Of a DNA stretch of 64,000 bases, positions 48,681-62,978 are shown piece after piece. The position numbers and the translations under genes were made by a program. The notes beneath the pieces are model-generated. The model saw nothing but the letters and a program-made list of their open reading frames with translations. It searched no databases and had not been told where the DNA came from. Each line of letters begins with the position of its first letter. The first letter of the stretch is position 1. The DNA comes from a virus, in IMG/VR virus record IMGVR_UViG_3300024324_000009, positions 32,001-96,000 of that record; one strand, written 5' to 3'.

Positions 48681-49585
48681 GCTATATACGCCTCCTGAAT
48701 TTTGGTGTTAAATAATTCTGTTACTGCCTCTTGGAATTTACCCATATTGTAGTTCTCATCTAAGAACTTTCTACCTTCTTCTATATCTGGTCTGTCTTGT
48801 GTTAGTAGTTCTTCTATCTTTGGTAATATATTGGCACCATTATTTTCTATCATAATCTGTGGAGTGGTCATCTTACAGCTTCCTGTTCCGATAACCTTGG
48901 CTCCTAGTGCTACAGCACATAGACATTCATAGTTTCCATTAATAGTAGTATCTAGATAAACTTTGCAGTTCTTAACTTTTTCAGAGAACTCTTCAAAACT
49001 AGTAAACTGTTGTACTACCTCTACCGTAAGTCCTTTTTGCTGGGCTGCACCGGCTATCTGTTTACCAAGCAAGCTAGTGTCATGCACAAGTAGGTCGGTA
49101 GTCTGCTTGATGTCGTCTGTGGTCAACAGATCAAGAGGCACACCATAATTGATTACGGTAGAATTAGGCATATCTCCCCAAGATTCAGCGATATGCTTAT
49201 TCATAAAGAGTTTAGTTCTGTTAGCATTCTTCTGAGAACTAATGATATAGTCCTCTCTCTTCATATTAGGTGGCCTCATCTGATTAAAAACAACAACATT
49301 GTTCACATGTCTGTACAAAGAATCTTGTGGAGTATTGTCGTTCAGATCGTTGGTGACAGATAGGGCGTAAGTATTGTCATTAAAAAAGGGTTCTAACAAA
49401 GTCAAAGCCGTTCTGCTAGAAGGATTTTTAAATACATGGTTTTGCATAGGTTGCATATAATATCTGAAGTTAGTCTCAAAGATAGCACAATCATTAAGTC
49501 CTCCACTTGCTTTAAATATAATGTTGTGTGTTTTTTTGTGGTTTAATGACGATATAATATTTGTTACTGCTCTTGCTAGTTGCAT
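48677..49585 (-). CDS. Divergent GT-B glycosyltransferase-like protein
   Basis: VINYGVPLD, CKVYLDTT...YECLCAVALGAKVI, FLDENYNMGKF. Confidence 0.55.
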   Translation of the reverse strand: MQLARAVTNIISSLNHKKTHNIIFKASGGLNDCAIFETNFRYYMQPMQNHVFKNPSSRTALTLLEPFFNDNTYALSVTNDLNDNTPQDSLYRHVNNVVVFNQMRPPNMKREDYIISSQKNANRTKLFMNKHIAESWGDMPNSTVINYGVPLDLLTTDDIKQTTDLLVHDTSLLGKQIAGAAQQKGLTVEVVQQFTSFEEFSEKVKNCKVYLDTTINGNYECLCAVALGAKVIGTGSCKMTTPQIMIENNGANILPKIEELLTQDRPDIEEGRKFLDENYNMGKFQEAVTELFNTKIQEAYIA

Positions 49586-50694
49586 ATTTTCTTTCCTATT
49601 GTTTGATAGCTAAATTGGTCCATAGATTCTCTACCTATTTGTCTTTTCTCTTCAAGTGTCTTTCTTTCTTTTTTACTCATTTCATATACTGTACGCATAT
49701 GATCAATCATAACATAAATATTAGGACGATACCAATAAGAATTAGCATTATAAATATCAAAGCTATTAGCTAATGTTCTTTGAGCAGATATCACTGGAGT
49801 TTTCTGACTAGAAATAACAAAGCCGTTCTTTTTATTTACAAAATCGGTCATACCTGTATGGTCTGTTACTATAGGAGTCTTACCTAAGACAAGTGCTTCT
49901 GCTGCTGGTCTACAAAATGCTTCTCCATGAGAAGCCATAACGAAACAGTCACAAGCATTGTGTAATCCTATTAAATCCTTATCAGACAGTCTTTCTGTGA
50001 TGACAAACTCATCTCTTGTCTGCCCAATGTTCAACATCTGTTTATGTTGGTTGAGTGCCTGTTTTACTATTCGTTGTCCTTCACCACTACTTTTACCGGG
50101 AACAGAAGTTTTTATAATTAAGGACACATTTTCATTGTCTCTAAAAGCTAGATTAAAAGCCGTAACCACATCAATTAGATTTTTTCTCTCAACAAACTCT
50201 CCAACATGGTAAAACTTAAAACTGCGATCAATAGATTTTTGCATATTAAGTTTATGGTCTGCATTTTCTTTAAGAAAATCTAAGTCCAATGCTCCTGAAA
50301 TAACCTTGCACTTGGTTTTGACTCCTGATTCTTTGACACTTTTAGCTTCCTGCTTGCTTGGCACACAGACTAAATCTAGGTTATTCAAGATATTCTGGCA
50401 AACAGAATCTGAAAGATTAGTGATCTCCATATTAAAAATGCCAACATTCTTTTTTACAGAATTGGTGATGGACATGCTCTGAGGAAGTAGTTCTTGATAA
50501 ATTACATCATATTTCGGATATGTGTTTTTCTCGTACTTAGCAATATCTTCGCTAATCTCAACGGACTGCCCAGTATAGAAATAGGGTCTAGTTGTTATAT
50601 TTTCCGTCTGAGTTGCTATAGACCTAATGTAGTCCCTAGCAGACATTCCCCATCCGTCATCTTGTCTGTATGGCCCTATAAATAGTGAGTTCAT
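49576..50694 (-). CDS. GT4-family glycosyltransferase
   Basis: YHVGEFVERKN and HNACDCFVMASHGEAFCRPAAEALVLGKTPIVT. Confidence 0.9.
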   Translation of the reverse strand: MNSLFIGPYRQDDGWGMSARDYIRSIATQTENITTRPYFYTGQSVEISEDIAKYEKNTYPKYDVIYQELLPQSMSITNSVKKNVGIFNMEITNLSDSVCQNILNNLDLVCVPSKQEAKSVKESGVKTKCKVISGALDLDFLKENADHKLNMQKSIDRSFKFYHVGEFVERKNLIDVVTAFNLAFRDNENVSLIIKTSVPGKSSGEGQRIVKQALNQHKQMLNIGQTRDEFVITERLSDKDLIGLHNACDCFVMASHGEAFCRPAAEALVLGKTPIVTDHTGMTDFVNKKNGFVISSQKTPVISAQRTLANSFDIYNANSYWYRPNIYVMIDHMRTVYEMSKKERKTLEEKRQIGRESMDQFSYQTIGKKICN

Positions 50695-52370
50695 TAAGAT
50701 TGACCTTTCATGTTTGCATAATTTATGAAATCTTCTGGCGTTAGTTTATCTTCATTTCTCTGTGCATGGACTGCAAAGTTATGATTTTTAATATGCATAT
50801 TAAGTTGTTGTACAATATCTTTTTTAGTAATGCCCTTATTTTGCATTCCCATAATCCTAAAACCATAGTCTAGATCATGAATAGCATCAGTAATCACATT
50901 AGAACTTAAAAATTGTTCATTGTTGCCCATATGCATACCCGCTAATTGTGTAACATAGTCGTATGCAGAAGTATCTGCCGGTAGTTCATCTTCTTGAATC
51001 TCTTGTACAGGCTGTAGCTGGACATCCCATCGTCCTTGCAGTCCTGTAAGTTGCACATTGTCAAGACATTTTTCCCACTTTTTGGCAATGTTATCCCAGT
51101 TGTAATGTTTTTCTGTGTTTTGTCTGGTCTCAAACTTCTTAGAATCTTTTAACATATCTGGCATGTTGATATATTCTGTAAGTATCTCTACCAAATGATC
51201 ATTATCAGGATAGACTCTGATTGCTTTAGTCTCTAATTCTCTAAAGTATTGGTTGATTCTAATTGGGAAACCATTTAGCTTCTTAACAACATCTTGCATG
51301 GCACTGTAGTCTACACTGGCTACAGGAACTCCCGCACTTGCAGCTTCTACTTGTGGCATACCAAACCCTTCGCAGATTGCATACTGAACATAAATATCAA
51401 ATAAGTTGATAATAACATTTAGGTCTTGCTGAGAAATACCATTTGCTACATTTGGCATACTTAATGACTTGTTACCACACTTTGGACAAAAAGCCATAGG
51501 ATGCTTAAATCTTGCAGCATGATAAAATCCGCAAACTTTACAGTTGTATGTAAACATAACACGATTGCCTACTTCGTATTCTTTCAGGTACAAAGGAATA
51601 TCCCATCCTGCATCTGGATAACTCGTATGGATATGCAAATATGTTTTTGCTGCTTGTGGGTGATTATCTGCATGTAATTTCTTGACAAACTTATTGAATG
51701 CAGAAAACAACTCTGGTATTAATTTACGTTTCTGATTACGGCAAATTGTGCCTACAATAAAAGCATCCTCTTCTATACCCATTGCTTTTCGAATGTTCTT
51801 GCGTTGCTCTGCTTCTAGGGGCTTAAATACATCTAAGGAAACACCCGGACTAGTAGTATCAATATAATTAATGTGATTATTAGACTGATCAGCTAGTGTG
51901 TCTCTACCAAAATCACTGTAGGTAGTTATTGCGTCAGCGTGTAAGAAAGTGTCGATCCAGCCTTCTTGTTGTGGTGCAGAGTCCACAGTGGGCATAAGAA
52001 TCCAGTGAAAGTAAGGCCTAAAGGGTGTGTGTTGTTGATAAGAGTTCATCCAGTAATCACGGACATCGATCACGATATCTGGCTTGAAATCAATAAGTAC
52101 ACGTTCAAATCTCCAACGACCAAACTGATTTTCTGGAGACTTCATATATGTTTCGTGTCTAGGGTCTCCTTGAGGAACAGCATTTGCGTAATACCTCCAT
52201 TTGATTGTCGAGTCTTTAGGGTCATTTACTTTACCGTAGCAAGCAAATTCTGCAATTTCATACTTGCCTGTAGCATGTAGCCTTGAGAGAATTTCTTTAG
52301 CATATGTGCCAAAACCGGAACTTAAAAAACTAGCCTCAGATACCATCAACACTTTTAATTTTTTTGTCAT
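50694..52370 (-). CDS. GT4-family glycosyltransferase with zinc-ribbon insertion
   Basis: Start MTKKLKVLMVSE at 52370 with AGGA RBS. RNQKRK and FDIYVQYAICEGFGMPQVEAASAGVP motifs; CKVC...CPKC insert. Confidence 0.9.
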   Translation of the reverse strand: MTKKLKVLMVSEASFLSSGFGTYAKEILSRLHATGKYEIAEFACYGKVNDPKDSTIKWRYYANAVPQGDPRHETYMKSPENQFGRWRFERVLIDFKPDIVIDVRDYWMNSYQQHTPFRPYFHWILMPTVDSAPQQEGWIDTFLHADAITTYSDFGRDTLADQSNNHINYIDTTSPGVSLDVFKPLEAEQRKNIRKAMGIEEDAFIVGTICRNQKRKLIPELFSAFNKFVKKLHADNHPQAAKTYLHIHTSYPDAGWDIPLYLKEYEVGNRVMFTYNCKVCGFYHAARFKHPMAFCPKCGNKSLSMPNVANGISQQDLNVIINLFDIYVQYAICEGFGMPQVEAASAGVPVASVDYSAMQDVVKKLNGFPIRINQYFRELETKAIRVYPDNDHLVEILTEYINMPDMLKDSKKFETRQNTEKHYNWDNIAKKWEKCLDNVQLTGLQGRWDVQLQPVQEIQEDELPADTSAYDYVTQLAGMHMGNNEQFLSSNVITDAIHDLDYGFRIMGMQNKGITKKDIVQQLNMHIKNHNFAVHAQRNEDKLTPEDFINYANMKGQS

Positions 52371-52385
52371 GTTTTGTCCTTGTGT

Positions 52386-52425
52386 AAAAATGAGAGAGAG
52401 GCACGGCATTGTCGGCCTCTCCCTC
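52386..52425 (-). terminator. Probable intrinsic terminator after ssb
   Basis: Minus strand GAGGGAGAGGC-loop-GCCTCTCTCTC followed by ATTTTT. Confidence 0.65.
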
Positions 52426-52912: not shown

Positions 52913-54529
52913 TTAATTTTTTGGTAAATAAGCCTTTTCTACAATAAGGCTATCACCATCCCTATTTTTCGACCCTTGTATAACAATAACATTGTTTTCA
53001 AACAAAATACTACTATAGGTAGAAAATTGTTCAGGAAAGAACACGATACTGTCTATCGAGCCACTACTATCGCTTCCTTCCACAAAAGCCATCTTTGCTC
53101 CGGGGTTTTTCCCCTTTTTAGTCTTAATAACACCGACATTATCTATCTGTAAAGCGACGACAATCTCGTTGAGTAGACTATTATTAAAGTCCTTACATAT
53201 TGTGTTTGTCATAGATACGTCATACATATCTACTTTAGAACACGTTATCGAACAACCTAAATATTCTTCTTCATTATCGGCTATCCACTCTGGGCTATCT
53301 TCTAGCACATAAGGTGGATTGTCTATAGTATTAATGAAACCTAAGAGTTTTTCTTTTCTCTTACTGCTCATTCTTGGCTTTTCTATGACGCAGTATATGA
53401 TATCTTTTAATGAATCATAATTAAGACACGTACTTAACGCATGTTCTTGTTCTTTGGCTGTAAGATCATTTATAAGACCATATTCAAACATCATCTTGGT
53501 TCTAGTAAGCCCAAAATAATCTAATGCACCTGACTGTATCAAAGCCTTGACCGCTGTTGAACTTAGCCTTGTCATAACTCTAAGTACTGTTTGATGCCAA
53601 TTTAAGTCATTGAGATTAATATTATCTTCTTCTAGTATGGTTCTAAGTTTCTTGTACATAGAACCGCCAAAACCCTTTAGGTCTGTCAGTCCGAAATAAA
53701 TTTTCTTATCATGTAGTACAAAATATTCATTCAGCACACGCAAATCAGGCAGATGTACTGTGATCTCCATTTCGCTGGCGTTTTGTACCAGTTGCTTGAT
53801 CTCTACTTTGGGATCAATCTTGTCTTTAGCAAAACGTAAATATGAAGCAAAGAATACTCTTGGGAAGTGAGCCTTCGCGTATGCGGACAGATATGCGTTC
53901 ATAGCATAGGACACAGCATGACTTTTATTAAAACTGTATCTCTGGCTTTTTTCAATCCATCCGAATATCTCTTCTGCCTGTTCTTTTGTGACTAATTTAA
54001 GTTTTGCAGAACCGGAGATGAACTTCTTTTTTAGTTTCGCCATTTCTTCTGGTTGCTTTTTACCAATGGCTTTTCTCAGGTTGTCTGCTTGTTGCAAGTC
54101 AAACCCTGCTACCTCTTTTGCAATTTGCATAGCTTGTTCTTGGTAAATCATTTCACCATATGTACTCTTTAGTGCATTTTCCAACATGGGATGATAATAG
54201 TCTACAGACTCTTGCCCGTTCTTTCTGTCGATATAATGATTAGTAACATTCTTGCCATCTCTGTATGCCTGTAGACATCCCGGTCGTAGAATACTAATTA
54301 ATGCACTTAATTGTTCAATGTTTTCTGGTTTAAGTTTCTTAGCCACAGATTTTCCAAGCCTAGTCTCCAACTGAAAACATCCTTTAGTATTACCATCAGA
54401 TATTAAATCCCAAGTCTTTTGGCAATTCAAATCCAATTCATGGTTTACAGGATCGAAATCAATAGAAGTCTTACCCTCACTCTCTGTAGCATGAAAACTA
54501 CAACCACAACTAAATTTTAATACTGTCAT
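52913..54529 (-). CDS. dnaE: DNA polymerase III alpha, C-terminal part (fingers, HhH, OB)
   Basis: GCFQLET, ISILRPG, TYGEMIYQEQAMQIA, ADNLRKAIGKK, YSFNKSHAVSYA, ALIQSGALD and an OB fold MAFVEGSD. Confidence 0.93.
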   Translation of the reverse strand: MTVLKFSCGCSFHATESEGKTSIDFDPVNHELDLNCQKTWDLISDGNTKGCFQLETRLGKSVAKKLKPENIEQLSALISILRPGCLQAYRDGKNVTNHYIDRKNGQESVDYYHPMLENALKSTYGEMIYQEQAMQIAKEVAGFDLQQADNLRKAIGKKQPEEMAKLKKKFISGSAKLKLVTKEQAEEIFGWIEKSQRYSFNKSHAVSYAMNAYLSAYAKAHFPRVFFASYLRFAKDKIDPKVEIKQLVQNASEMEITVHLPDLRVLNEYFVLHDKKIYFGLTDLKGFGGSMYKKLRTILEEDNINLNDLNWHQTVLRVMTRLSSTAVKALIQSGALDYFGLTRTKMMFEYGLINDLTAKEQEHALSTCLNYDSLKDIIYCVIEKPRMSSKRKEKLLGFINTIDNPPYVLEDSPEWIADNEEEYLGCSITCSKVDMYDVSMTNTICKDFNNSLLNEIVVALQIDNVGVIKTKKGKNPGAKMAFVEGSDSSGSIDSIVFFPEQFSTYSSILFENNVIVIQGSKNRDGDSLIVEKAYLPKN

Positions 54530-55215
54530 GCAAAAGCGTCCTTAAATGTTATTTTTTGTGCCAAACTTCTATGCAGTCTCATAAATCTTGTAAGCACTGC
54601 TGCTGTGTCCTTAACGTCCTTAATTGCGTCATGAGCACCATCTTTACTAATACCCATATAATCTCTCAGGTTGTCTAGAGTATAACTTTTTAGTTCTGGG
54701 TTATGCTCAAACCAGTAAAAGACTAGATTAAGCATGTCCACCACATCTCTTGGATAAAAGACTTTGCTGTTTCCTTCTTTATTAGTATCTCCGAATTTCT
54801 GAGCGAGCCTATTAACGATGGGTAGATCAAATCTATAAATATTATAGCCTGCTGCTATCGGAGCAGTAAACATACTGTGCTTCTTGGCTTTCATATGGTA
54901 TTTGTCCAGATAGTCTGTAAACATACGCCATGACTGTTCTTGGCTAGGATACTTTTGCCATTCAGCCTTGACCGCTTCCTTTGAGCAACCCTTAACCTTG
55001 GCATGAAAATCTAAGATGTCTGTCTTATATTCATACTCAGGGTCTTTTTCCATGCACTCTGGTTTAAAATTAGCATTAAACTCAGAGTTAGGTATAATTT
55101 CAAGACTGACAGGATCAACCATTACGGCAGCAATTTGTACTGGACTACATTTGCTTGGGTTTACCCCATCTGTCTCAAAATCAAACACACAAATCTTATT
55201 ATAATTAATTCCCAT
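54526..55215 (-). CDS. DEDDh 3'-5' exonuclease (DnaQ/epsilon-like)
   Basis: VFDFETDG (ExoI), AGYNIYRFD (ExoII), AHDAIKDV (ExoIII). Confidence 0.92.
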   Translation of the reverse strand: MGINYNKICVFDFETDGVNPSKCSPVQIAAVMVDPVSLEIIPNSEFNANFKPECMEKDPEYEYKTDILDFHAKVKGCSKEAVKAEWQKYPSQEQSWRMFTDYLDKYHMKAKKHSMFTAPIAAGYNIYRFDLPIVNRLAQKFGDTNKEGNSKVFYPRDVVDMLNLVFYWFEHNPELKSYTLDNLRDYMGISKDGAHDAIKDVKDTAAVLTRFMRLHRSLAQKITFKDAFA

Positions 55216-55246
55216 ATCAAATCCTATTCTATGTCCTGATCAAAAT

Positions 55247-55465
55247 CTAAAGTAACTTACGAACTCTTTCTAGTGGCTTAATGCCAATCAATTTACCTTT
55301 ACTGTCTTTGCAATTAGTAAAGCTACAACAGCTTTTACGAACTTCTTTAACTTTGGTCATTTTATTGTCTAATCCACGAACAAAATCACCTTCTGTTAGA
55401 AATACATCGCCTACACTTAGTTTGCGAAACTGGTGTTGCTCTGTTGCTGGTTTTTCATCTGACAT
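55247..55465 (-). CDS. Small hypothetical protein (72 aa)
   Basis: AGGAGA RBS and a near-consensus promoter upstream; FRKLSVGDVF...SCC. Confidence 0.7.
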   Translation of the reverse strand: MSDEKPATEQHQFRKLSVGDVFLTEGDFVRGLDNKMTKVKEVRKSCCSFTNCKDSKGKLIGIKPLERVRKLL

Positions 55466-55494
55466 CTTTATTCTCCTGTACTGTACTATATGTT

Positions 55495-55523
55495 ATTATA
55501 CCCGATAATGAATACACCGTCAA
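55495..55523 (-). promoter_or_regulatory. Sigma70-like promoter internal to the split dnaE locus
   Basis: Minus strand TTGACG-N17-TATAAT; the -35 contains the TGA stop of dnaE-N. Confidence 0.75.
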
Positions 55524-57394
55524 GCACCTTCTTTCATAAGATCGCTAATGCACATAATCTTATCTAGCATAGCAACCCCTAGAATATCTAGCTTGATCAT
55601 TCCAAGACTTTCAAGGTCAGCCATTTCCATGCCAGCAATTACCTGTTTGTTTTTACTGTCATAGACCATCGGACAGATACCGGCAAGAGGCTCTGCACTG
55701 ACTGCTATACCAGCAGCATGTTTTGACTGAACCGATTTGGTTCCTTCCAATCTCATAGCTTGTTCAAATCTTTTTGACAACGGACCTTCTAATTGACCCT
55801 TTTTACCTATATGACACCACTGTTTTAGTTTTTCAGGGTCGTTCTCTAGTGTCCATCTAATAATAGAAGACTCTCCTGTTGCCTCTTTCATTTCTTGTAA
55901 TTCATCTGCCACTTTAGACTCTTCAGGAATATTTCTAGTGATATCATTCATTTCTTCAAATGTGATACCTCCAAACACCCTAAGTACATCTTTTAATGCC
56001 CCTCTACCCTTGATAGTACCAAACGTAATCATCTGTGACACCTTATCGTCTCCGTAAGTATCACGAATATACTGAATGACTTTTTCACGTTTGTCGATAG
56101 GTACGTCAACATCAATATCAGGCATAGAGGTATGTTCTGCTGTATTTCTACCAGCATTATAAAACCTATCAAAGATGAGACCGTACTTTATAGGGTCAAT
56201 GGTTGTAATACCAATTAGGTAAGAAACCAAACACCCTGCTGCACTTCCTCGTCCCGGTCCCGGTAGCCATTTGTTTTCACGTACATGATTCACAATGTCC
56301 TGTACAATCAGAAAGTAACTAGATAGGTCTGCACCCTGCAAAACACTTAATTCATACTTGATTCTATCTACATATTTTCCATGATCTTCTTTAGGTATAT
56401 TATTAGCTATCTTATCTCGCCATCCGTCCCTGCATAGTTGACGCAAATACTCTCCGTCATCTTTGGCTTCTGGACAGGGAAACGGAGGCAGATTTGGCTT
56501 ACTTAATATGTCATACTCTTCACACATGTCAGAAACAACATTAGTGTTTGCTAGTTCTTCTTCTGTGTGCAGGGCATTCATTTCTTCTTGATCTAATATA
56601 TGAAAATTATCAGATTTAAAAAAGGCATCCAAACCAATAGACTCGCCATTGGACATCTTCCTATTTACCTCTGAGAAGGTCGTTTTTAAATTATTGCACA
56701 AAAGCACCCTTTGATCAACTGCGTCTGTCTTACGGCAATAATGAGCGTCTGGAGTTGCTACAATCCTATTGCCTGTAATCTTTGCTAGTTCTCTGATACA
56801 GTCTGTGAGTTTGTCCTGTAGAGGAATATTCTCATGATCCATCAACTGTGCTTCTAAGAAGAAGTTTTCTTTACCAAACATATGGTTTAACTTACTGACT
56901 AGTCTAGTGCCGACATTTTTCCAATTCGGGTCTATGTCGTCTCCCTGCACTAAATACCTAGCCAGCGTTGATCCTAGATGACCACATATTCCTATAATAT
57001 TACCATCAATAAAATTAGATAATGTATCTAGGTCTAATCTAGGCTTTCTGTAAAAATGCTCAGGAAGGTTTGCTTCTGATGTTAGTCTAATTAATTGTTT
57101 CCATCCTTTAAAATTTTTAGCCAGCAGGAGGAAGTGACTCAACTTTGCATTATCTTTGTCTTTGATTTTGCAGTCTTGTTCACAGACATAGATTTCTTGT
57201 CCAAGTATGGGTTTTATTCCTTGTTTTTTCATCTCTGAGTAAAACTTGATCGCACCGGCAATGTTACCGTGGTCTGTTAATGCACAGGATGTCGCACCAA
57301 TTTCAATACATCTCTCTGCCATGTCTGCTGGTTTGCTCATACCGTCAAGTAGGCTATACATACTGTGGCAGTGAATCGGTTGGTAAGTTATCAT
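55520..57394 (-). CDS. dnaE: DNA polymerase III alpha, N-terminal part (PHP + palm/thumb)
   Basis: HCHSMYSLLDG, LTDHGN, PDAHY, GPGRGSAAGCLVSYLIGIT, MPDIDVD, KHAAG, GMIKLDILG. Confidence 0.95.
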   Translation of the reverse strand: MITYQPIHCHSMYSLLDGMSKPADMAERCIEIGATSCALTDHGNIAGAIKFYSEMKKQGIKPILGQEIYVCEQDCKIKDKDNAKLSHFLLLAKNFKGWKQLIRLTSEANLPEHFYRKPRLDLDTLSNFIDGNIIGICGHLGSTLARYLVQGDDIDPNWKNVGTRLVSKLNHMFGKENFFLEAQLMDHENIPLQDKLTDCIRELAKITGNRIVATPDAHYCRKTDAVDQRVLLCNNLKTTFSEVNRKMSNGESIGLDAFFKSDNFHILDQEEMNALHTEEELANTNVVSDMCEEYDILSKPNLPPFPCPEAKDDGEYLRQLCRDGWRDKIANNIPKEDHGKYVDRIKYELSVLQGADLSSYFLIVQDIVNHVRENKWLPGPGRGSAAGCLVSYLIGITTIDPIKYGLIFDRFYNAGRNTAEHTSMPDIDVDVPIDKREKVIQYIRDTYGDDKVSQMITFGTIKGRGALKDVLRVFGGITFEEMNDITRNIPEESKVADELQEMKEATGESSIIRWTLENDPEKLKQWCHIGKKGQLEGPLSKRFEQAMRLEGTKSVQSKHAAGIAVSAEPLAGICPMVYDSKNKQVIAGMEMADLESLGMIKLDILGVAMLDKIMCISDLMKEGA

Positions 57395-57646: not shown

Positions 57647-57674
57647 ATTGTAACACATTCTGACTACTTGTCAA
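57647..57674 (-). promoter_or_regulatory. Sigma70-like promoter with a palindrome over the -35
   Basis: Minus strand TTGACA-N16-TACAAT with TG extension; inverted repeat CTACTTG-T-CAAGTAG at 57664-57678. Confidence 0.7.
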
Positions 57675-58714
57675 GTAGAACCCGGAGCACGATATTTAGC
57701 TACGTTGTATCCATCGACTTGATATACCTTTACAGCTTCTTTGATGCCGTGCATACGAGTATCATGCTTAACTTGCTCACACATCGTCATAACTTCTCCT
57801 ACAGGAGTAACCTGATCTTCTCTGTATTCTACAAGAGGTTCGTGCTTGGTGCCAGCAAATGTCTTTTTACCGAAATCGCATAGTTTTGTACACTTCCATG
57901 TTTTCTTGAGAGGTGGACGCTTACAGTTTTTGATATCCTCGAAAGTTTTACGCAGCATCATCTCAACTTTAAATAAATCTCCTTTTTCAAAATTTATAGA
58001 AAATATGCCGCCGTCATTAATAAAATTAATCGTAACTATAATATGTTTTGCTTGAGGATACAAATGTTGAATAGCATAGTAATACAGCATTAGCTGTGGG
58101 TCTCTCTGTAACTTAGCTATGGTCTTCTCTTCACCTGTGGCCCAATCCAAACGCCTTCCTGTTTTATAGTCAGTAATCTCATATGTATCATCGTTAATTT
58201 TTGTGATCAAGTCGATTGTACCTTTAATCGCCAACTGTCCTTTGACATGGTTGCCTTCTGCGTCAGTAAAGTCATACCAAGCCCAAGGCTTATCAATAGT
58301 AATATCAAACCGTTGTTCAGGCTGGATGATATGCTGATTTCTGGGGTCTAACATACCATTGTTCTGCTCTAAACATTTTTGTATCCATTTTCTACAATCT
58401 CTGTAGTCTACGTCAGTCCATTTATGGTGTGTAAACGCACTGGTATAATAATCATAGACTTTTTGCGTTAAATCATCTATGCTATAATTATGTACATTGA
58501 CATATCCTACAATATCATCCTCAAAGCTACCTTCTTTGTTTTGCAGTCCTAACTGTACGAAAGCAAGTATCTCCATCACCTTATGAACGATGGTTCCTTT
58601 GTCTGCTTTCTTATTAGAATCTCCATTGTGTCCTAATACATACTGGAAAAAGTATTGTTGATTACACATTTTCCATGTGCCTAGTGAACTACTTCTAATA
58701 TATGCTATATCCAT
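57671..58714 (-). CDS. PD-(D/E)xK exonuclease, RecB/AddB/Cas4-like
   Basis: SSSLGTWKMC, KGTIVHKVME, PEQRF, KGTIDLI, ITDYKTG, QLMLYYYA and C-terminal CTKLC. Confidence 0.88.
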   Translation of the reverse strand: MDIAYIRSSSLGTWKMCNQQYFFQYVLGHNGDSNKKADKGTIVHKVMEILAFVQLGLQNKEGSFEDDIVGYVNVHNYSIDDLTQKVYDYYTSAFTHHKWTDVDYRDCRKWIQKCLEQNNGMLDPRNQHIIQPEQRFDITIDKPWAWYDFTDAEGNHVKGQLAIKGTIDLITKINDDTYEITDYKTGRRLDWATGEEKTIAKLQRDPQLMLYYYAIQHLYPQAKHIIVTINFINDGGIFSINFEKGDLFKVEMMLRKTFEDIKNCKRPPLKKTWKCTKLCDFGKKTFAGTKHEPLVEYREDQVTPVGEVMTMCEQVKHDTRMHGIKEAVKVYQVDGYNVAKYRAPGST

Positions 58715-58722
58715 AAAATCTC

Positions 58723-59796
58723 CTATCGAGTTAAAACGCCACCATCCCTTGAAAGCATTAGTTTATCCCATGCAGACAAGGCATCAGGAGCCGTACTGGG
58801 CAGCACCTCAATGTTGTTATTAATAAAATGTGTTGATCCATCAACAAATACCACACCAACTCCACCGGGATGTAGACTTCTAGAAGTTGCTTCATTGTTA
58901 GTTAAATTAAAACAACTCATCCCTTGTGCGTTCATGTCGTAGCTTTGTTGTAAAAGGTTGCAGTTTATTACATTGTCTGCACCTGACGAGGTATTAGCAT
59001 TTGGCCCAGCAGCATCTAGACTCACCCCATCATAAGTTAAGCCGCCATGACCCCATAACGCACTACTGCCAGCACCAGCCATAGCCCAGCAACCTCTAGA
59101 ATCTCGTTCGTCGATACCTGCACGAATTTCTGCTAATAAACAAGTATTAGAAGTTCCATCAGTTATATGTCCGAACTGACTACTCGCTCCATACCCCATG
59201 ACTCCTCTAAGCATAGGGTCGTTCCAGTTCTTGCCATTATTGCCCAGAGCATTAAATGGAGGATGTAAAGTCAAAGAGAACATACCTAGGCCTGCGTTAG
59301 CAGCATAGTTACCTCTAGCCCAGTTATCACCCCATTGTGCAGACCTAGAAGCAGAAGTGCCATTAAATGGCTTCCTATTATATGGGTCACTAGCACAAAG
59401 CATAACACTAAGTTCTGTAGAACGCAACGCCTCATTGCTTGGTGCTGATACAGTAAACCTAGAGTCGCTTTCGTCGTGTAGAGACTTTACTGTGCTTTGC
59501 TCTACATAGTCTAGGATGTCAATTACCCAATTCTTTGTTCTGGTATATGAACCAATGCCATCTGGTGGCAAGTTAGGATCGTTTGATGAAATCTTATGAC
59601 TAGCATACGGAAATCTACGATGTGCAGACTCGTAATTGTGACACGCTAGCCCTAACTGTTTCATATTGCTGGCACAAGACATACGTCTTGCAGCCTCTCT
59701 TGCGGATTGCACAGCAGGCAACAACAAGCCAACAAGCACACCGATGATGGCAATAACAACAAGTAGTTCGATTAAAGTAAATGCTTTCTTATTCAT
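58723..59796 (-). CDS. DUF1559 family prepilin-type N-terminal cleavage/methylation protein
   Basis: KA|FTLIELLVVIAIIGVLVGLLLPAVQSAREAARRMSCASNMKQLGLACHNY, ITDGTSNT..LAE, and a C-terminal H-X9-DG (HPGGVGVVFVDG). Confidence 0.95.
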   Translation of the reverse strand: MNKKAFTLIELLVVIAIIGVLVGLLLPAVQSAREAARRMSCASNMKQLGLACHNYESAHRRFPYASHKISSNDPNLPPDGIGSYTRTKNWVIDILDYVEQSTVKSLHDESDSRFTVSAPSNEALRSTELSVMLCASDPYNRKPFNGTSASRSAQWGDNWARGNYAANAGLGMFSLTLHPPFNALGNNGKNWNDPMLRGVMGYGASSQFGHITDGTSNTCLLAEIRAGIDERDSRGCWAMAGAGSSALWGHGGLTYDGVSLDAAGPNANTSSGADNVINCNLLQQSYDMNAQGMSCFNLTNNEATSRSLHPGGVGVVFVDGSTHFINNNIEVLPSTAPDALSAWDKLMLSRDGGVLTR

Positions 59797-60374
59797 AGTA
59801 ATTTCTCCAAAGTTAAAAAGTTGTCCAATTCATTCAAAGTCTCTTGTACCGTCTTATTAGTATTGTCAATAACTAAATCGAAGTTATCTATTGAAAAATA
59901 AGTGTGATCTAATGCAGTCTCACTGGCATGGTTACTATTATACACGTTCCGTTCCAGTTTGACAACCACCCCGCCAGCATTTTTTATACATTCTACTTCA
60001 TTAGGGAAACGACAGTCTGCTACAAGTGCCAGAAAAGGTGAATCTTTTTCTATGCGACCTATAGTTGCTGCTGACCATACATCATTTTTAATAGTACGAA
60101 ATATATCTGTTCCTACATACTGCATTACTTCTCTAGCAGTCATGTTTTTCCCATGTCTCTTACATTCTGTCAAAGTGTTCTTTGCAGCATCGTCGCCGTA
60201 ACACTGGGTATATGTCAAACCTAAAACATCCATACATACAGTGCGTTTTAGTGGATCAGCAAAATTATATACTTTGCATACTTTATCTCCTGTACACTTA
60301 GACGCAAGGTGTTCTGCACAAGTTGTTTTACCAGACTGTTTTCTGCCAGCAAATGCAATAATCTTAGTTTTCAT
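59793..60374 (-). CDS. Deoxynucleoside monophosphate kinase
   Basis: FAGRKQSGKTT, NFADPLK, REVMQYVGTDIFR, DCRFPNE, HASE. Confidence 0.9.
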   Translation of the reverse strand: MKTKIIAFAGRKQSGKTTCAEHLASKCTGDKVCKVYNFADPLKRTVCMDVLGLTYTQCYGDDAAKNTLTECKRHGKNMTAREVMQYVGTDIFRTIKNDVWSAATIGRIEKDSPFLALVADCRFPNEVECIKNAGGVVVKLERNVYNSNHASETALDHTYFSIDNFDLVIDNTNKTVQETLNELDNFLTLEKLL

Positions 60375-61540
60375 ATAACGTCCTTTATATACTGTTTGAT
60401 TTCCTTGTCAATTTCTTCACTAGTCATTTCACCAATGTCACCCTTAGATATTTCTGGTATAAATACCCTGTAAGTGTTTTGGCATTTGTTCTTAATCTCT
60501 TGTGCCGCCTGCTTACCAGCCTCATCATTATCGGTCAATACTATTATAGCCATTGCTCCCGAAGAGTCCAGTAATATTTTCTGTCTATCGCTCAGATTAC
60601 AGCCAAATATAGCTACACTATTATGTATGCCATTCTCTTCTAGTCTCCATACATTGCCGGGACTCTCTACGATAATAGCTACATGAGACTGCTCTATATG
60701 CTCTTTGGCAAAACCTTTCCAATAGTTGTACAAATTATTCTGACTTTTAAAATCTGCACTATGTTTCCATTTAGAGTAGGCCCATCTATATTCTGAATCA
60801 GGACAATCTTGGTTGGGGTCATGGTAAGCACCACATTTAGGACAAGCCTCAAATATGCTGCGACCAGTACAGCCTACCATATTATCATATTCTAGATTGT
60901 ATATGGGTGCTACTACACGATTATTCATAGGCTTGCCTTTAGAGGCACACAAACCAACGTCATACCTGTCCAATACTTCCTGTGAATATCCTCTATTTAT
61001 AAAGTATTCAGCAGGATAAATTAGTGAACTTCTAACTTGTTTTCTGGTAATCTTAGAGGCTTGAACTTTGTCTTCTTCCCTTATATGATTAATTGCATTG
61101 GTAAAGTTAGACTTATTGCGATTGACCTTTGTGATCTTAATATCTTTCATGTCTTTGTTGACAAACTTTTCTAAGAAAGTTACTGCTTCTTTAAAGGTTG
61201 CCATCTTATCGCCTTGCTTATACCACTTATATTTTCTGTGTGATATAATACCTCTTACGAAACCTATTAGTGAACCCCTAAAGCACTTTTGACAACCATG
61301 AGTCCTACACTTCCAGTTACCCTTATAATTATCGTAGGCATCATCACCCACATGATAAATGTTCAGTGCGGAGTCATTGTCTCCACCGTGTATGGGACAA
61401 GGCATACTATACATCTTGCCTTTATCTTTATATTCAAGATCAAAGTAGTCAAACAATGCTTCTATGTCATCACACGCCATATCGCATAGTATTTTTAACT
61501 TTTTCTGATCACTCGAATGGGATTTGTTCGCTGTCTTCAT
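60371..61540 (-). CDS. dnaG: DnaG-like primase (CHC2 zinc finger + TOPRIM)
   Basis: CPIHGGD...WKCRTHGC, VGCTGRSI, IIVES, LTDNDEAG, KGDIGEM; adjacent to the helicase. Confidence 0.85.
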   Translation of the reverse strand: MKTANKSHSSDQKKLKILCDMACDDIEALFDYFDLEYKDKGKMYSMPCPIHGGDNDSALNIYHVGDDAYDNYKGNWKCRTHGCQKCFRGSLIGFVRGIISHRKYKWYKQGDKMATFKEAVTFLEKFVNKDMKDIKITKVNRNKSNFTNAINHIREEDKVQASKITRKQVRSSLIYPAEYFINRGYSQEVLDRYDVGLCASKGKPMNNRVVAPIYNLEYDNMVGCTGRSIFEACPKCGAYHDPNQDCPDSEYRWAYSKWKHSADFKSQNNLYNYWKGFAKEHIEQSHVAIIVESPGNVWRLEENGIHNSVAIFGCNLSDRQKILLDSSGAMAIIVLTDNDEAGKQAAQEIKNKCQNTYRVFIPEISKGDIGEMTSEEIDKEIKQYIKDVI

Positions 61541-62978
61541 TATTTTCCTCTACCAAAAAGCCATCTGATTCTTGTCCACGATTATTCATTACTTCTAATT
61601 TAGTTTTACCTTCGGTAATCTTTGCACACCAACCTTTCATGTTGCAGTTGATGTAGTCGTTATCGTCTAGTCCTCCACCATGACGACTAATAAGAGGAAC
61701 TAGCTTACGGTTGCCGTTGTCTGCACCATCTTCAGCAATCTCTTCAGACGACTTGCGTTTAAAGATACTGAAATTGCTACAGAGCCATACGATTCTATCT
61801 GAGCCGCTAGCCGTATCTGTGCTCTCTTTTGTTATACCGTCACGGTTTAGCTGAATAAATGCCATGATAGGTATTTTATATTTTGTTGCGAAGTTATGTA
61901 GTTGTGTCATCATAAATCCCAACAGTTGATACTCTTTCATATCCGCACTCATGCCTTGCGTATCCATCAATTTTAGGTAGTCATAGAAGATAACACAGTC
62001 TTTTGCTGTGCCGTCATCATTTAGTCCTACTTCTTTTACGATCCATCTACGCACAATAGACATTTGATCTTCAAAACTTTTACCAGCAATAGACTTATGA
62101 TAATACGGTGTCTTTTTAAGTTTAGCCATTGCTTCTATTATTTTTGTTTTGTTTGCGGGTGTGCCAGCAAACCTTCCGGTTTCTATATCATTTATCTCAA
62201 CCTCTGTCATCATAGCCAGAACACGATTGATATGGTCTTCTTTAGTCATTTCAGTATCCATATTTAATACTGGGATACCGAGTTCACTAGCTATATAAAA
62301 GCCCATATTGTCTGATAATAAAGTCTTACCAGTTTTTGGTCTAGCAGCAATCACGTTGACTGTGGACTTTCTTAGTCCCCCACCTATAGCCTGATCGTAT
62401 GCAGGGAAGCCAGTAGAAATACCTACTTGGTCAACTTTATTTTCTACAAGGTCTTTGACATACGCATCTATATCGCTTCCGATAGTTTCTGGTTTACCAT
62501 CAGAATCATTCAACACGTTCGTAAAATCAAAAACAGCATCTTCAGCTACAGCCAGAATAGAACCAATGCTCTCTGTGCCAGTGACATCCAACAGTTTGTC
62601 TCCAGCCCCTTCTAATTGTTTCTTTAGTAGTCTAGCTATTTCTAGTTTGCGAATTTTTGCTGCAAACTTTCTGACGTTATCCAGATTCACGGGGAAATCT
62701 ATTACGGCTTTGAGATGCTGAACCTCATCCTTTTTCTGAATAACTGCACCAAGAGTTAACTCTTCAGCAGCAGAAAAGATAGATGCCACATCAATAGATG
62801 TTTGTACCTCTTCTTTATCAAAAATAGTCTTCAGGCATTTAAACAGTATCACATTACTGTCTACAGTAAACGTAGATTCGGTTACAATGTCTGCTATATC
62901 TAACCAGCCGTCATGACCATACTTGCACAATCCTGCAAGCACTGCTCGTTCTGCTGATGTGTCGCTTAATACTAACAT
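61509..62978 (-). CDS. dnaB: Replicative DNA helicase, DnaB-like
   Basis: AERAVLAGL, GISTGFPAYD, AARPKTGKT, DTEM, FYDYLKLM, QLNR, SRHG. Confidence 0.93.
   Translation of the reverse strand: MLVLSDTSAERAVLAGLCKYGHDGWLDIADIVTESTFTVDSNVILFKCLKTIFDKEEVQTSIDVASIFSAAEELTLGAVIQKKDEVQHLKAVIDFPVNLDNVRKFAAKIRKLEIARLLKKQLEGAGDKLLDVTGTESIGSILAVAEDAVFDFTNVLNDSDGKPETIGSDIDAYVKDLVENKVDQVGISTGFPAYDQAIGGGLRKSTVNVIAARPKTGKTLLSDNMGFYIASELGIPVLNMDTEMTKEDHINRVLAMMTEVEINDIETGRFAGTPANKTKIIEAMAKLKKTPYYHKSIAGKSFEDQMSIVRRWIVKEVGLNDDGTAKDCVIFYDYLKLMDTQGMSADMKEYQLLGFMMTQLHNFATKYKIPIMAFIQLNRDGITKESTDTASGSDRIVWLCSNFSIFKRKSSEEIAEDGADNGNRKLVPLISRHGGGLDDNDYINCNMKGWCAKITEGKTKLEVMNNRGQESDGFLVEENNEDSEQIPFE

What the first reader, a model, noticed from the sequence alone, without database searches (positions are those of the whole stretch)
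58723..59796. Phage-encoded DUF1559 prepilin-like protein: host marker and possible pilus/secretion interference factor
Seen: a full-length gene with the type IV prepilin cleavage/methylation motif and H-X9-DG C-terminus, ATGA-coupled to dNMP kinase inside the replication operon. Known: this family is massively expanded in Planctomycetota, with relatives in other PVC bacteria, and its function is unresolved. Inference: the host is a planctomycete, a group with very few characterised phages. The protein would be processed by the host prepilin peptidase and could alter pili or uptake machinery, giving superinfection exclusion or modified nutrient uptake.
Basis: partly seen in the sequence, partly recalled or inferred. 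Interest (0 to 1): 0.72.

Follow-up and report, generated by a model that had tools for sequence, protein, structure and literature searches.

The report
Planctomycete pilin-like gene in phage
A large uncultured lytic phage carries, inside its DNA-replication operon, an intact and well-kept copy of a pilin-like envelope protein (DUF1559) taken from Pirellulales planctomycetes; this points to the host and shows these phages repeatedly pick up such genes, but what the protein does during infection is untested.

Summary
Observation confirmed. Window 58723-59796 (-) encodes a 357-aa protein with the prepilin motif, a full DUF1559 domain and the H-X9-DG tail. It overlaps the dNMP kinase stop by ATGA.

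It is not an assembly artefact. Three independent contigs keep the same gene order (82-90% identity), dN/dS is 0.06-0.16, and its GC3 matches the phage.

About 40 more distant relatives join dNMP kinase directly to the PD-(D/E)XK nuclease, so this copy is a lineage-specific insertion. It nests among cellular DUF1559 proteins. Strong matches occur in 62/81 genomes of the Adhaeretor family, 23/81 Pirellulales and 2/81 Planctomycetota.

The 171-kb phage (rIIA, no integrase) has a second, older DUF1559 copy (32% identical). It also has DUF1501 and PSCyt/PSD genes, but no prepilin peptidase or assembly ATPase.

Relatives carry DUF1559 at other sites, or not at all.

Best reading: a host-derived pilin-like subunit made early in infection. 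The host would process it and use it to remodel a surface fibre or pseudopilus, perhaps for superinfection exclusion, as with P-FimU. That function is inferred.

The scan had already noted phage DUF1559 genes in at least 13 other genomes. I found no paper describing them.

The parts
58723..59796 (-). DUF1559 / H-X9-DG prepilin-type gene ('copy A'), 357 aa
   Evidence: PF07596 at E 1.1e-46, PF07963, TIGR04294. AF2 model pLDDT 90.5. dN/dS 0.06-0.16.
59719..59796 (-). Class III (prepilin) signal. Leader MNKKA, predicted cleavage before F6, Glu at +5 (E10), hydrophobic start of the alpha-1 helix.
   Evidence: N_methyl residues 2-26. TIGR02532 residues 4-25. Ala at -1 is as common as Gly in the family, 61 against 65.
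58837..58872 (-). H-X9-DG motif (H309 ... D319 G320)
   Evidence: TIGR04294 at residues 306-326. H309 and D319 are invariant in 79 aligned homologues.
59793..59796 (-). ATGA overlap of the dNMP kinase stop with the DUF1559 start (translational coupling)
   Evidence: Sequence read. In relative L021 the same ATGA couples dNMP kinase directly to the nuclease.
59793..60374 (-). dNMP kinase, upstream neighbour
   Evidence: PF21448; phrog_139 at E 1.4e-41.
57671..58714 (-). PD-(D/E)XK exonuclease, downstream neighbour (8-nt gap)
   Evidence: PF12705; phrog_69.
60371..62978 (-). Toprim primase (60371-61540) and DnaB helicase (61509-62978), upstream in the same operon
   Evidence: Pfam hits.
52913..57394 (-). 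Split PolIII alpha (N-half 55520-57394, C-half 52913-54529) with a DnaQ-like exonuclease (54526-55215) between the halves; downstream in the same operon
   Evidence: PF02811, PF07733, PF17657, PF14579, PF00929.

Best explanation
Copy A is a working, host-derived member of the DUF1559 / H-X9-DG prepilin-type family. It was captured from a Pirellulales planctomycete, close to Lacipirellulaceae. It was inserted exactly at the ATGA junction between the dNMP kinase and PD-(D/E)XK nuclease genes of one sub-lineage of a family of large lytic phages.

Shown here:
- family membership
- the insertion
- the cellular origin
- purifying selection
- the lack of phage-encoded processing or assembly genes

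Inferred:
- The protein is co-translated with the replication genes early or mid infection.
- It is inserted into the host inner membrane through its class III signal and cleaved by the host prepilin peptidase.
- It is taken up by the host's own DUF1559-based fibre or pseudopilus machinery in place of a host subunit.

The most likely benefit is remodelling of the infected cell's surface so that further phages cannot adsorb. That would resemble the prophage FimU mimics of Pseudomonas and the early exclusion proteins of lytic phages.

I put the origin and 'functional envelope protein used in infection' part at about 0.85. I put the specific exclusion mechanism at about 0.35. The confidence given for this whole statement (0.4) reflects the inferred steps.
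For: Membership: PF07596, PF07963 and TIGR04294 all score above cut-off. All 23 family-invariant residues are kept and none varies among the phage orthologues. The AF2 model has pLDDT 90.5 with a 52-residue N-terminal helix. Of 22 VIA-align rows, 20 are type IV pilins or pseudopilins, though Z is only up to 4.5.

Real and resident: the same gene order occurs in L003, L007/L012 and L008 at 82-90% identity. dN/dS is 0.06-0.16 with dS 0.8-1.6. GC3 is 0.338 against a genome value of 0.294 +/- 0.040, whereas cellular relatives lie on contigs of 52-68% GC.

Insertion: about 40 relatives with PolIII at 42-71% identity have dNMP kinase abutting the nuclease.

Origin: copy A nests (99*, 95*) inside a cellular subfamily that contains Adhaeretor and Posidoniimonas. 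It is separate from the phage's copy B clade. The family/order/phylum gradient is 62/81, 23/81 and 2/81.

Host dependence: the phage has no Peptidase_A24 and no T2SSE.

Accessory, arms-race-like behaviour: related phages carry DUF1559 genes at other sites, or none. Between L012 and L008, dN is 3-10 times that of the neighbouring genes. Variable positions cluster at residues 81-160.

Lytic lifestyle: rIIA at E 3.5e-112 and no tyrosine integrase.

Precedent: P-FimU and the phage PilA-like proteins of virulent phages (PMC12952977).
Against: No experiment or expression data support any step after translation. The cellular function of DUF1559 is itself unknown (PMC10632474), so 'host fibre or pseudopilus' is an assumption.

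Cellular DUF1559 genes are flanked by a conserved ~140-aa lipoprotein in 5 of 5 contexts. The phage does not encode it.

Cellular relatives sit among glycoside hydrolases, sulfatases and sugar-binding proteins. The phage also carries DUF1501 and PSCyt/PSD genes. Both facts fit a nutrient-uptake role equally well.

The phage's receptor is unknown.

The structural match to pilins is weak: Z up to 4.5, and Foldseek found nothing at E<=1e-3.
Confidence: 0.4

Rival explanations
1. Auxiliary host-function gene. The phage supplies an extra DUF1559 subunit to keep up or boost the host's capture, uptake or secretion machinery for polymers during infection. It would act alongside the phage's DUF1501 and PSCyt/PSD proteins.
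For: Cellular relatives of copy A lie among a fucosidase, GH2, GH43/BNR, GH123, sulfatase and a periplasmic sugar-binding protein. Pili-like fibres of planctomycetes bind dextran (PMC5394234). The phage carries DUF1501, PSCyt1-PSCyt2-PSD1 and a ferredoxin. In several relatives DUF1559 and DUF1501 lie together (L133, L131, L147, L171). All family-invariant residues are kept.
Against: The Adhaeretor mobilis genome searched here gives 76 DUF1559 matches, and P. limnophila has 68 paralogues (PMC10632474). One more copy should add little. Copy A is only ~50% identical to any sampled cellular protein. Copy B sits on a very long branch, unlike typical auxiliary metabolic genes that stay close to the host version. 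The lipoprotein partner was not co-captured. Distribution among relatives is patchy, 0 to 2 copies.
Confidence: 0.25
2. Dominant-negative inhibitor. The phage protein competes for the host prepilin peptidase or assembly platform and shuts down host pili or pseudopili. This would stop motility, secretion or receptor display.
For: The phage has no assembly genes or partner lipoprotein of its own. G000 departs from the cellular consensus at three nearly invariant positions: P96D, P135A and N203G. Truncated phage PilA-like proteins have been proposed to act this way (PMC12952977).
Against: The protein is full length with every invariant residue, including Glu+5 and H-X9-DG. Purifying selection acts along the whole globular domain. 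A simple jammer should need only the N-terminal helix. Ala at -1 is normal for the family and is not a cleavage-blocking change.
Confidence: 0.12
3. The host is not a planctomycete. The gene marks only past contact or transfer through another PVC or unrelated lineage.
For: Host evidence is gene content only. One 46%-identical hit is labelled as a Patescibacteria MAG. Five DUF1559-less relatives were searched for DUF1501, and four of them lack it too, so the wider phage family may use several hosts. The phage's GC (38%) is far below that of the Lacipirellulaceae contigs (52-54%).
Against: Four or more planctomycete-signature families sit in one phage genome. Copy A shows a steep family > order > phylum gradient. 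The 'Patescibacteria' protein is sister (100*) to one on a 406-kb contig with DUF1559 paralogues, PEP-CTERM and BNR genes, so the label is probably a binning error. PF07596 rings in 0 of 14 control genomes.
Confidence: 0.1
4. Non-functional passenger or assembly chimera.
For: None was found. The only hint is that GC (0.437) is among the higher values in the genome.
Against: Three independent assemblies share the junctions. The ORF is intact in all of them, with dN/dS 0.06-0.16 at dS about 1. GC3 is phage-like. The gene has precise translational coupling on both sides.
Confidence: 0.02

Closest known systems
DUF1559 / SBP_bac_10 (PF07596) prepilin-type H-X9-DG proteins (TIGR04294) of Planctomycetota
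   Same: It has the full domain architecture and all 23 invariant residues. It is 49-51% identical to Adhaeretor mobilis proteins and nests inside a cellular subfamily.
   Different: It is encoded by a lytic phage inside a replication operon. It has phage-like codon composition and a short 5-residue leader. It lacks the flanking ~140-aa lipoprotein found next to the cellular genes.
Prophage-encoded FimU-like minor pilins (P-FimU) and phage PilA-like proteins (Sztanko et al., Cell Rep 2026, PMC12952977)
   Same: It is a phage-borne copy of a host pilin-type subunit that depends on host assembly machinery. It is diversified among phages. The paper also reports such genes in virulent phages.
   Different: The pilin-like family is different, with a ~300-aa globular domain, and so is the host phylum. 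No evidence shows incorporation into a fibre or a block of adsorption. The identity of the host fibre is unknown.
T2SS major pseudopilin GspG/PulG and type IV pilins
   Same: It has the class III signal, Glu+5 and a long alpha-1 helix. The PDB profile matches only pilins and GspG, over residues 1-75. The fold search lists almost only pilins and pseudopilins.
   Different: It scores far below the equivalog cut-off (TIGR01710, 37 against 88.85 bits). The globular part is three times larger and has no clear solved relative.
Early superinfection-exclusion proteins of lytic phages (T4 Imm/Sp, T5 Llp)
   Same: It is an envelope-targeted accessory protein expressed from early or middle genes of a virulent phage. 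This resemblance comes from my own knowledge of those systems.
   Different: There is no sequence or fold relation, and the function here is untested.

Membership tests
DUF1559 / H-X9-DG prepilin-type family (PF07596 + TIGR04294) | N-terminal prepilin cleavage/methylation motif with Glu at +5 | tested here: met
   PF07963 at 29.9 bits (cut-off 21.2); TIGR02532 at 28 bits (cut-off 16.3). Sequence A|FTLIE.
DUF1559 / H-X9-DG prepilin-type family (PF07596 + TIGR04294) | Full DUF1559 core above Pfam's gathering score | tested here: met
   160.5 bits against 23.3; profile positions 1-266 of 268.
DUF1559 / H-X9-DG prepilin-type family (PF07596 + TIGR04294) | C-terminal H-X9-DG motif | tested here: met
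   TIGR04294 at 26.8 bits (cut-off 19) over residues 306-326. H309 and D319 are invariant.
DUF1559 / H-X9-DG prepilin-type family (PF07596 + TIGR04294) | Family-invariant residues retained | tested here: met
   There are 23 invariant columns in 79 sequences, and none varies among the phage orthologues. Three of 65 near-invariant positions differ in G000.
DUF1559 / H-X9-DG prepilin-type family (PF07596 + TIGR04294) | Adjacent small LxGC lipoprotein gene (a context seen in cellular loci, not a formal criterion) | tested here: not met
   The lipoprotein is present in 5 of 5 cellular contexts. A profile search of the six-frame phage genome gave no hit better than E 1.4.
T2SS major pseudopilin GspG | Equivalog-level score to TIGR01710 | tested here: not met
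   37.1 bits against a cut-off of 88.85; only residues 5-66 match.
Type IV pilin / pseudopilin fold | Alpha-1 helix packed on an antiparallel beta-sheet | tested here: inconclusive
   The model has helix 8-59 plus C-terminal strands. Of 22 VIA-align rows, 20 are pilins, best Z 4.5 (rmsd 3.4, 116 aligned). Foldseek found nothing at E<=1e-3.
Type IV pilin / pseudopilin fold | Cleavage by a prepilin peptidase and assembly into a filament | not testable with these tools
   The phage has no Peptidase_A24 or T2SSE of its own, so host enzymes would be required.
Phage pilin mimics giving superinfection exclusion (P-FimU type) | Phage-encoded homologue of a host pilus-type subunit | tested here: met
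   49-51% identity to Pirellulales proteins, nested in a cellular clade.
Phage pilin mimics giving superinfection exclusion (P-FimU type) | Incorporation into the host fibre and block of phage adsorption | not testable with these tools
   This needs a cultured host-phage pair.
Phage pilin mimics giving superinfection exclusion (P-FimU type) | Elevated diversity among phage copies | tested here: inconclusive
   Between L012 and L008, dN is 0.132 against 0.012-0.040 for neighbouring genes, but omega stays at or below 0.16. Variable sites are concentrated at residues 81-160.

The most novel reading that the evidence does not exclude
DUF1559 genes may be a mobile accessory toolkit of a large, abundant family of marine phages that infect Pirellulales. 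These phages would use the proteins to re-equip the planctomycete surface-fibre or pseudopilus system during infection. That system could be the crateriform-associated fibres that bind polysaccharide. If so, phage copies stripped of their cellular partners would give the first experimental handle on the function of the largest paralogous family in planctomycete genomes.
Probability: 0.25. Interest if true: 0.7.

Novelty: new member of a known kind. Interest (0 to 1): 0.55.

Why it matters
Planctomycetes have almost no characterised phages. A 2025 review of a century of planctomycete research mentions phage once. DUF1559 is their largest paralogous family, with 68 copies in P. limnophila, two of them essential and the function unknown (PMC10632474).

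This gene, with three other planctomycete-signature families in the same genome, ties a 171-kb lytic phage and its close kin to Pirellulales hosts.

Related phages acquired DUF1559 genes several times, placed them in early or replication operons and kept them under purifying selection. That argues the family acts at the cell envelope in a way that matters during infection. It also offers single-gene, partner-free versions for testing.

Tried and rejected
- **Ala at -1.** I considered that Ala instead of Gly at -1 might make an uncleavable decoy. I rejected this because Ala is as common as Gly among 138 family members, 61 against 65.
- **GenBank phages.** tblastn of copy A against 50,697 GenBank phage records found no match.
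- **Genome-contig scan.** The single protein found only a 34-residue N-terminal helix match in an unrelated 1.8-Mb MAG that has no DUF1559.
- **Names for hits.** The listing of cluster members gave no names for ten NCBI-sourced hits. The genome search gives no taxon names for handles reached this way, so the taxonomy rests on two named hits plus the family/order/phylum sampling.
- **Foldseek.** The search against the PDB found nothing at E<=1e-3.
- **Complex prediction.** I tested copy A (residues 30-357) against the conserved cellular lipoprotein partner. The result was no verdict (score 0.01), so it counts neither for nor against binding.
- **Copy A as a duplicate of copy B.** Rejected. The two are 32% identical and sit in separate clades.
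- **Copy B's cellular relative.** In L208 it sits 4 kb from a PSCyt/PSD-DUF1501 pair. Those proteins are only 30% and 39% identical to the phage's, so they are not the source of the phage module.

Full report
**Observation**

The window is bases 32001-96000 of a 171,040-bp IMG/VR virus record that CheckV rates 100% complete. The ORF at window 58723-59796 on the minus strand encodes 357 aa.

- It matches PF07596 (DUF1559/SBP_bac_10) over the whole profile at E 1.1e-46, and PF07963.
- It matches TIGR02532 and the H-X9-DG model TIGR04294 above their cut-offs.
- Matches to GspG, ComGC and PilA models cover only the N-terminal helix and fall far below the equivalog cut-offs.

The start codon overlaps the stop of the dNMP kinase gene (CTATGA) and has GGAG 8 nt upstream. 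The stop lies 8 nt before the PD-(D/E)XK nuclease start, within TAGGAG. The surrounding genes on the same strand are DnaB, primase, dNMP kinase, the nuclease, a split PolIII alpha and a DnaQ-like exonuclease. No promoter- or terminator-like signal exceeds the shuffled expectation.

**The element is a phage, probably virulent**

- PHROG hits include a dNMP kinase (phrog_139), an exonuclease (phrog_69) and a baseplate-wedge or virion structural protein.
- Further hits are several tail-fibre proteins, a ribonucleotide reductase and an rIIA homologue at E 3.5e-112.
- No tyrosine integrase was found.
- Several relatives are complete genomes with direct terminal repeats.

**Not an artefact, and under selection**

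Three independent contigs carry the gene between the same neighbours at 82-90% protein identity: one ENA contig (L003) and two IMG/VR contigs (L007/L012 and L008).

| Measure | Copy A | Comparison |
|---|---|---|
| Pairwise dN/dS | 0.06-0.16 (dS 0.8-1.6) | 0.02-0.08 for neighbouring replication genes |
| GC3 | 0.338 | genome 0.294 +/- 0.040; cellular relatives' contigs are 52-68% GC |

The gene is therefore a long-standing, functional resident.

**A lineage-specific insertion**

In about 40 more distant relatives (PolIII alpha at 42-71% identity) the dNMP kinase gene is followed directly by the nuclease gene. In L021 the two overlap by the same ATGA. Copy A was thus inserted precisely at that junction in the sub-lineage whose PolIII is at least 93% identical.

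**A second copy and a mobile gene family**

The genome holds a second DUF1559 gene, copy B (328 aa, genome 145873-146859). It is only 32% identical to copy A.

- Copy B is widespread: 36 IMG/VR loci at 68-90% identity, and many abundant metagenomic clusters.
- A profile scan of IMG/VR found 249 stretches that encode relatives.
- Among low-GC relatives of this phage, DUF1559 genes sit at several other sites. These include between the exonuclease and the PolIII C-half (once together with DUF1501), upstream of DnaB, and near DUF1501.
- Of six near-complete relatives chosen by PolIII alone, none has DUF1559. Thirteen relatives chosen through DUF1559 have one copy each. This genome has two.

**Origin**

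In a maximum-likelihood tree of 103 sequences, the copy A clade plus one 65%-identical metagenomic protein is nested (99*, 95*) in a cellular and metagenomic subfamily. That subfamily contains the Adhaeretor mobilis and Posidoniimonas corsicana proteins. Copy B forms a separate 23-member phage clade on a branch of 1.89. The two are independent acquisitions.

Both named species belong to Lacipirellulaceae, Pirellulales. With 25 candidates scored per genome, matches at E<=1e-40 were found as follows:

| Sample | Genomes with a match |
|---|---|
| Adhaeretor's family | 62 of 81 |
| Its order | 23 of 81 |
| Its phylum | 2 of 81 (one is Adhaeretor itself) |

Only part of each genome's paralogues was scored, so these are lower bounds.

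Adhaeretor has 76 PF07596 matches. None of 14 control genomes has one.

The phage also encodes DUF1501, a PSCyt1-PSCyt2-PSD1 protein and a ferredoxin. Together these make a Pirellulales host likely. It is not proven, and the wider phage family may use other hosts. Five DUF1559-less relatives were searched for DUF1501, and four of them lack it too.

**Structure and family features**

- The AlphaFold2 model is confident (pLDDT 90.5, pTM 0.88) and has a helix over residues 8-59.
- A PDB profile search matches only pilin and GspG N-terminal helices.
- Foldseek finds nothing significant.
- The exhaustive VIA-align search returns 20 pilins or pseudopilins among 22 rows, at low Z of 4.5 or less. The fold reading is suggestive only.
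- All 23 family-invariant residues are present, including Glu+5, H309 and D319. None of them varies among the phage orthologues.
- Of 88 variable positions, 38 lie at residues 81-160.

**Context in cells against context in the phage**

In five cellular contexts a conserved ~140-aa lipoprotein (LxGCG lipobox) flanks the DUF1559 gene. The loci often lie among glycoside hydrolases, sulfatases or sugar-binding proteins. The phage encodes no such lipoprotein. It also encodes no prepilin peptidase or pilus/T2SS ATPase. It must rely on host components.

**Mechanism**

The shown facts support a functional, host-derived prepilin-type envelope protein produced together with the replication proteins. How it helps the phage is inference.

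I favour surface remodelling that excludes further phages, for four reasons:

- Gain and loss among relatives are patchy.
- Captures were repeated and independent.
- Its protein sequence evolves faster than its neighbours'.
- The phage copies have diverged from cellular proteins.

The precedents are P-FimU and the PilA-like proteins of virulent phages (PMC12952977).

A nutrient-uptake support role is a serious rival. It fits the carbohydrate-active neighbourhoods of the cellular genes, the dextran-binding fibres of planctomycetes (PMC5394234) and the phage's DUF1501 and PSCyt/PSD genes. A dominant-negative jammer is less likely, because the whole globular domain is conserved.

**Novelty**

Full-text searches found four papers that mention DUF1559, none in a phage context. 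Earlier notes of this scan record phage-borne DUF1559 genes in at least 13 other genomes. Two follow-ups reached similar conclusions.

The gene is a new member of two known kinds: the DUF1559 family and phage-borne pilin-like accessory genes. Its added value here lies in the precise insertion history, the two independent copies in one genome and the narrowing of the donor to the Lacipirellulaceae/Pirellulales.

Noticed in passing
G000 genome 145873-146859 (-) = L002:1444-2430; outside the window: A second DUF1559 gene (copy B, 328 aa, canonical G|FTLIE) is 32% identical to copy A. It is conserved at 68-90% in 36 IMG/VR loci and forms its own long-branch phage clade. It lies 1.5 kb from an rIIA homologue and 3.3 kb from DUF1501.
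   Followed up: partly
G000 genome 149780-153952 (-) = L127:9781-13953: A ferredoxin, DUF1501 (Tat-type) and a PSCyt1-PSCyt2-PSD1 protein lie next to the DNA ligase. The top ~110 DUF1501 homologues (74-95% identity) lie on contigs that reach 144-205 kb (phage-genome size) and include a Tara Oceans sequence. The module therefore appears widespread in marine phages.
   Followed up: partly
window 52913-57394 (-): PolIII alpha is split into an N-half (PHP plus core, 624 aa) and a C-half (fingers, HhH, OB, 538 aa). A 72-aa ORF and a DnaQ/RNase T-like exonuclease gene lie between the halves. The split is conserved in all relatives. In some of them DUF1559 (with or without DUF1501) is inserted between the exonuclease and the C-half.
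   Followed up: partly
L204:5125-5559, L094:7553-7981, L207:3478-3999, L205:1946-2437, L004:1622-2056 (alignment A2): A conserved ~140-aa lipoprotein (LxGCG lipobox, no Pfam family) flanks cellular DUF1559 genes on either side in 5 of 5 contexts examined. It looks like an undescribed partner of this family.
   Followed up: partly
L092 (P0003) and L093 (P0005): The two nearest relatives of copy A outside the phage orthologues (65% and 49% identical) carry a 70-90-residue N-terminal extension ahead of the prepilin motif. The extension hits GYF_2 in P0003. That is odd for a class III signal peptide. L092 has 44.7% GC, which is intermediate between phage and cellular values.
   Followed up: no
L208:10001-18911 (2.9-Mb ENA contig): A cellular homologue of copy B (53% identical) is followed by a phytase-like gene, a choice-of-anchor I protein, PSCyt/PSD and DUF1501. 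The last two are only 30% and 39% identical to the phage's versions. The locus GC is 46-50%.
   Followed up: partly
window 49576-52409 (-): Two adjacent paralogous glycosyltransferase genes (phrog_2170) lie just downstream of the PolIII C-half. A third lies at genome 127701-128762.
   Followed up: no
window 10236-42085 (+): A run of giant ORFs (3525, 1561, 593, 1914 and 3030 aa) lies in the structural module. Most proteins of that module have no PHROG match.
   Followed up: no
P0014: A 46%-identical DUF1559 protein is labelled 'Patescibacteria group bacterium'. It is sister (100*) to a protein on a 406-kb contig with planctomycete-type genes, so the label is probably a binning error.
   Followed up: partly
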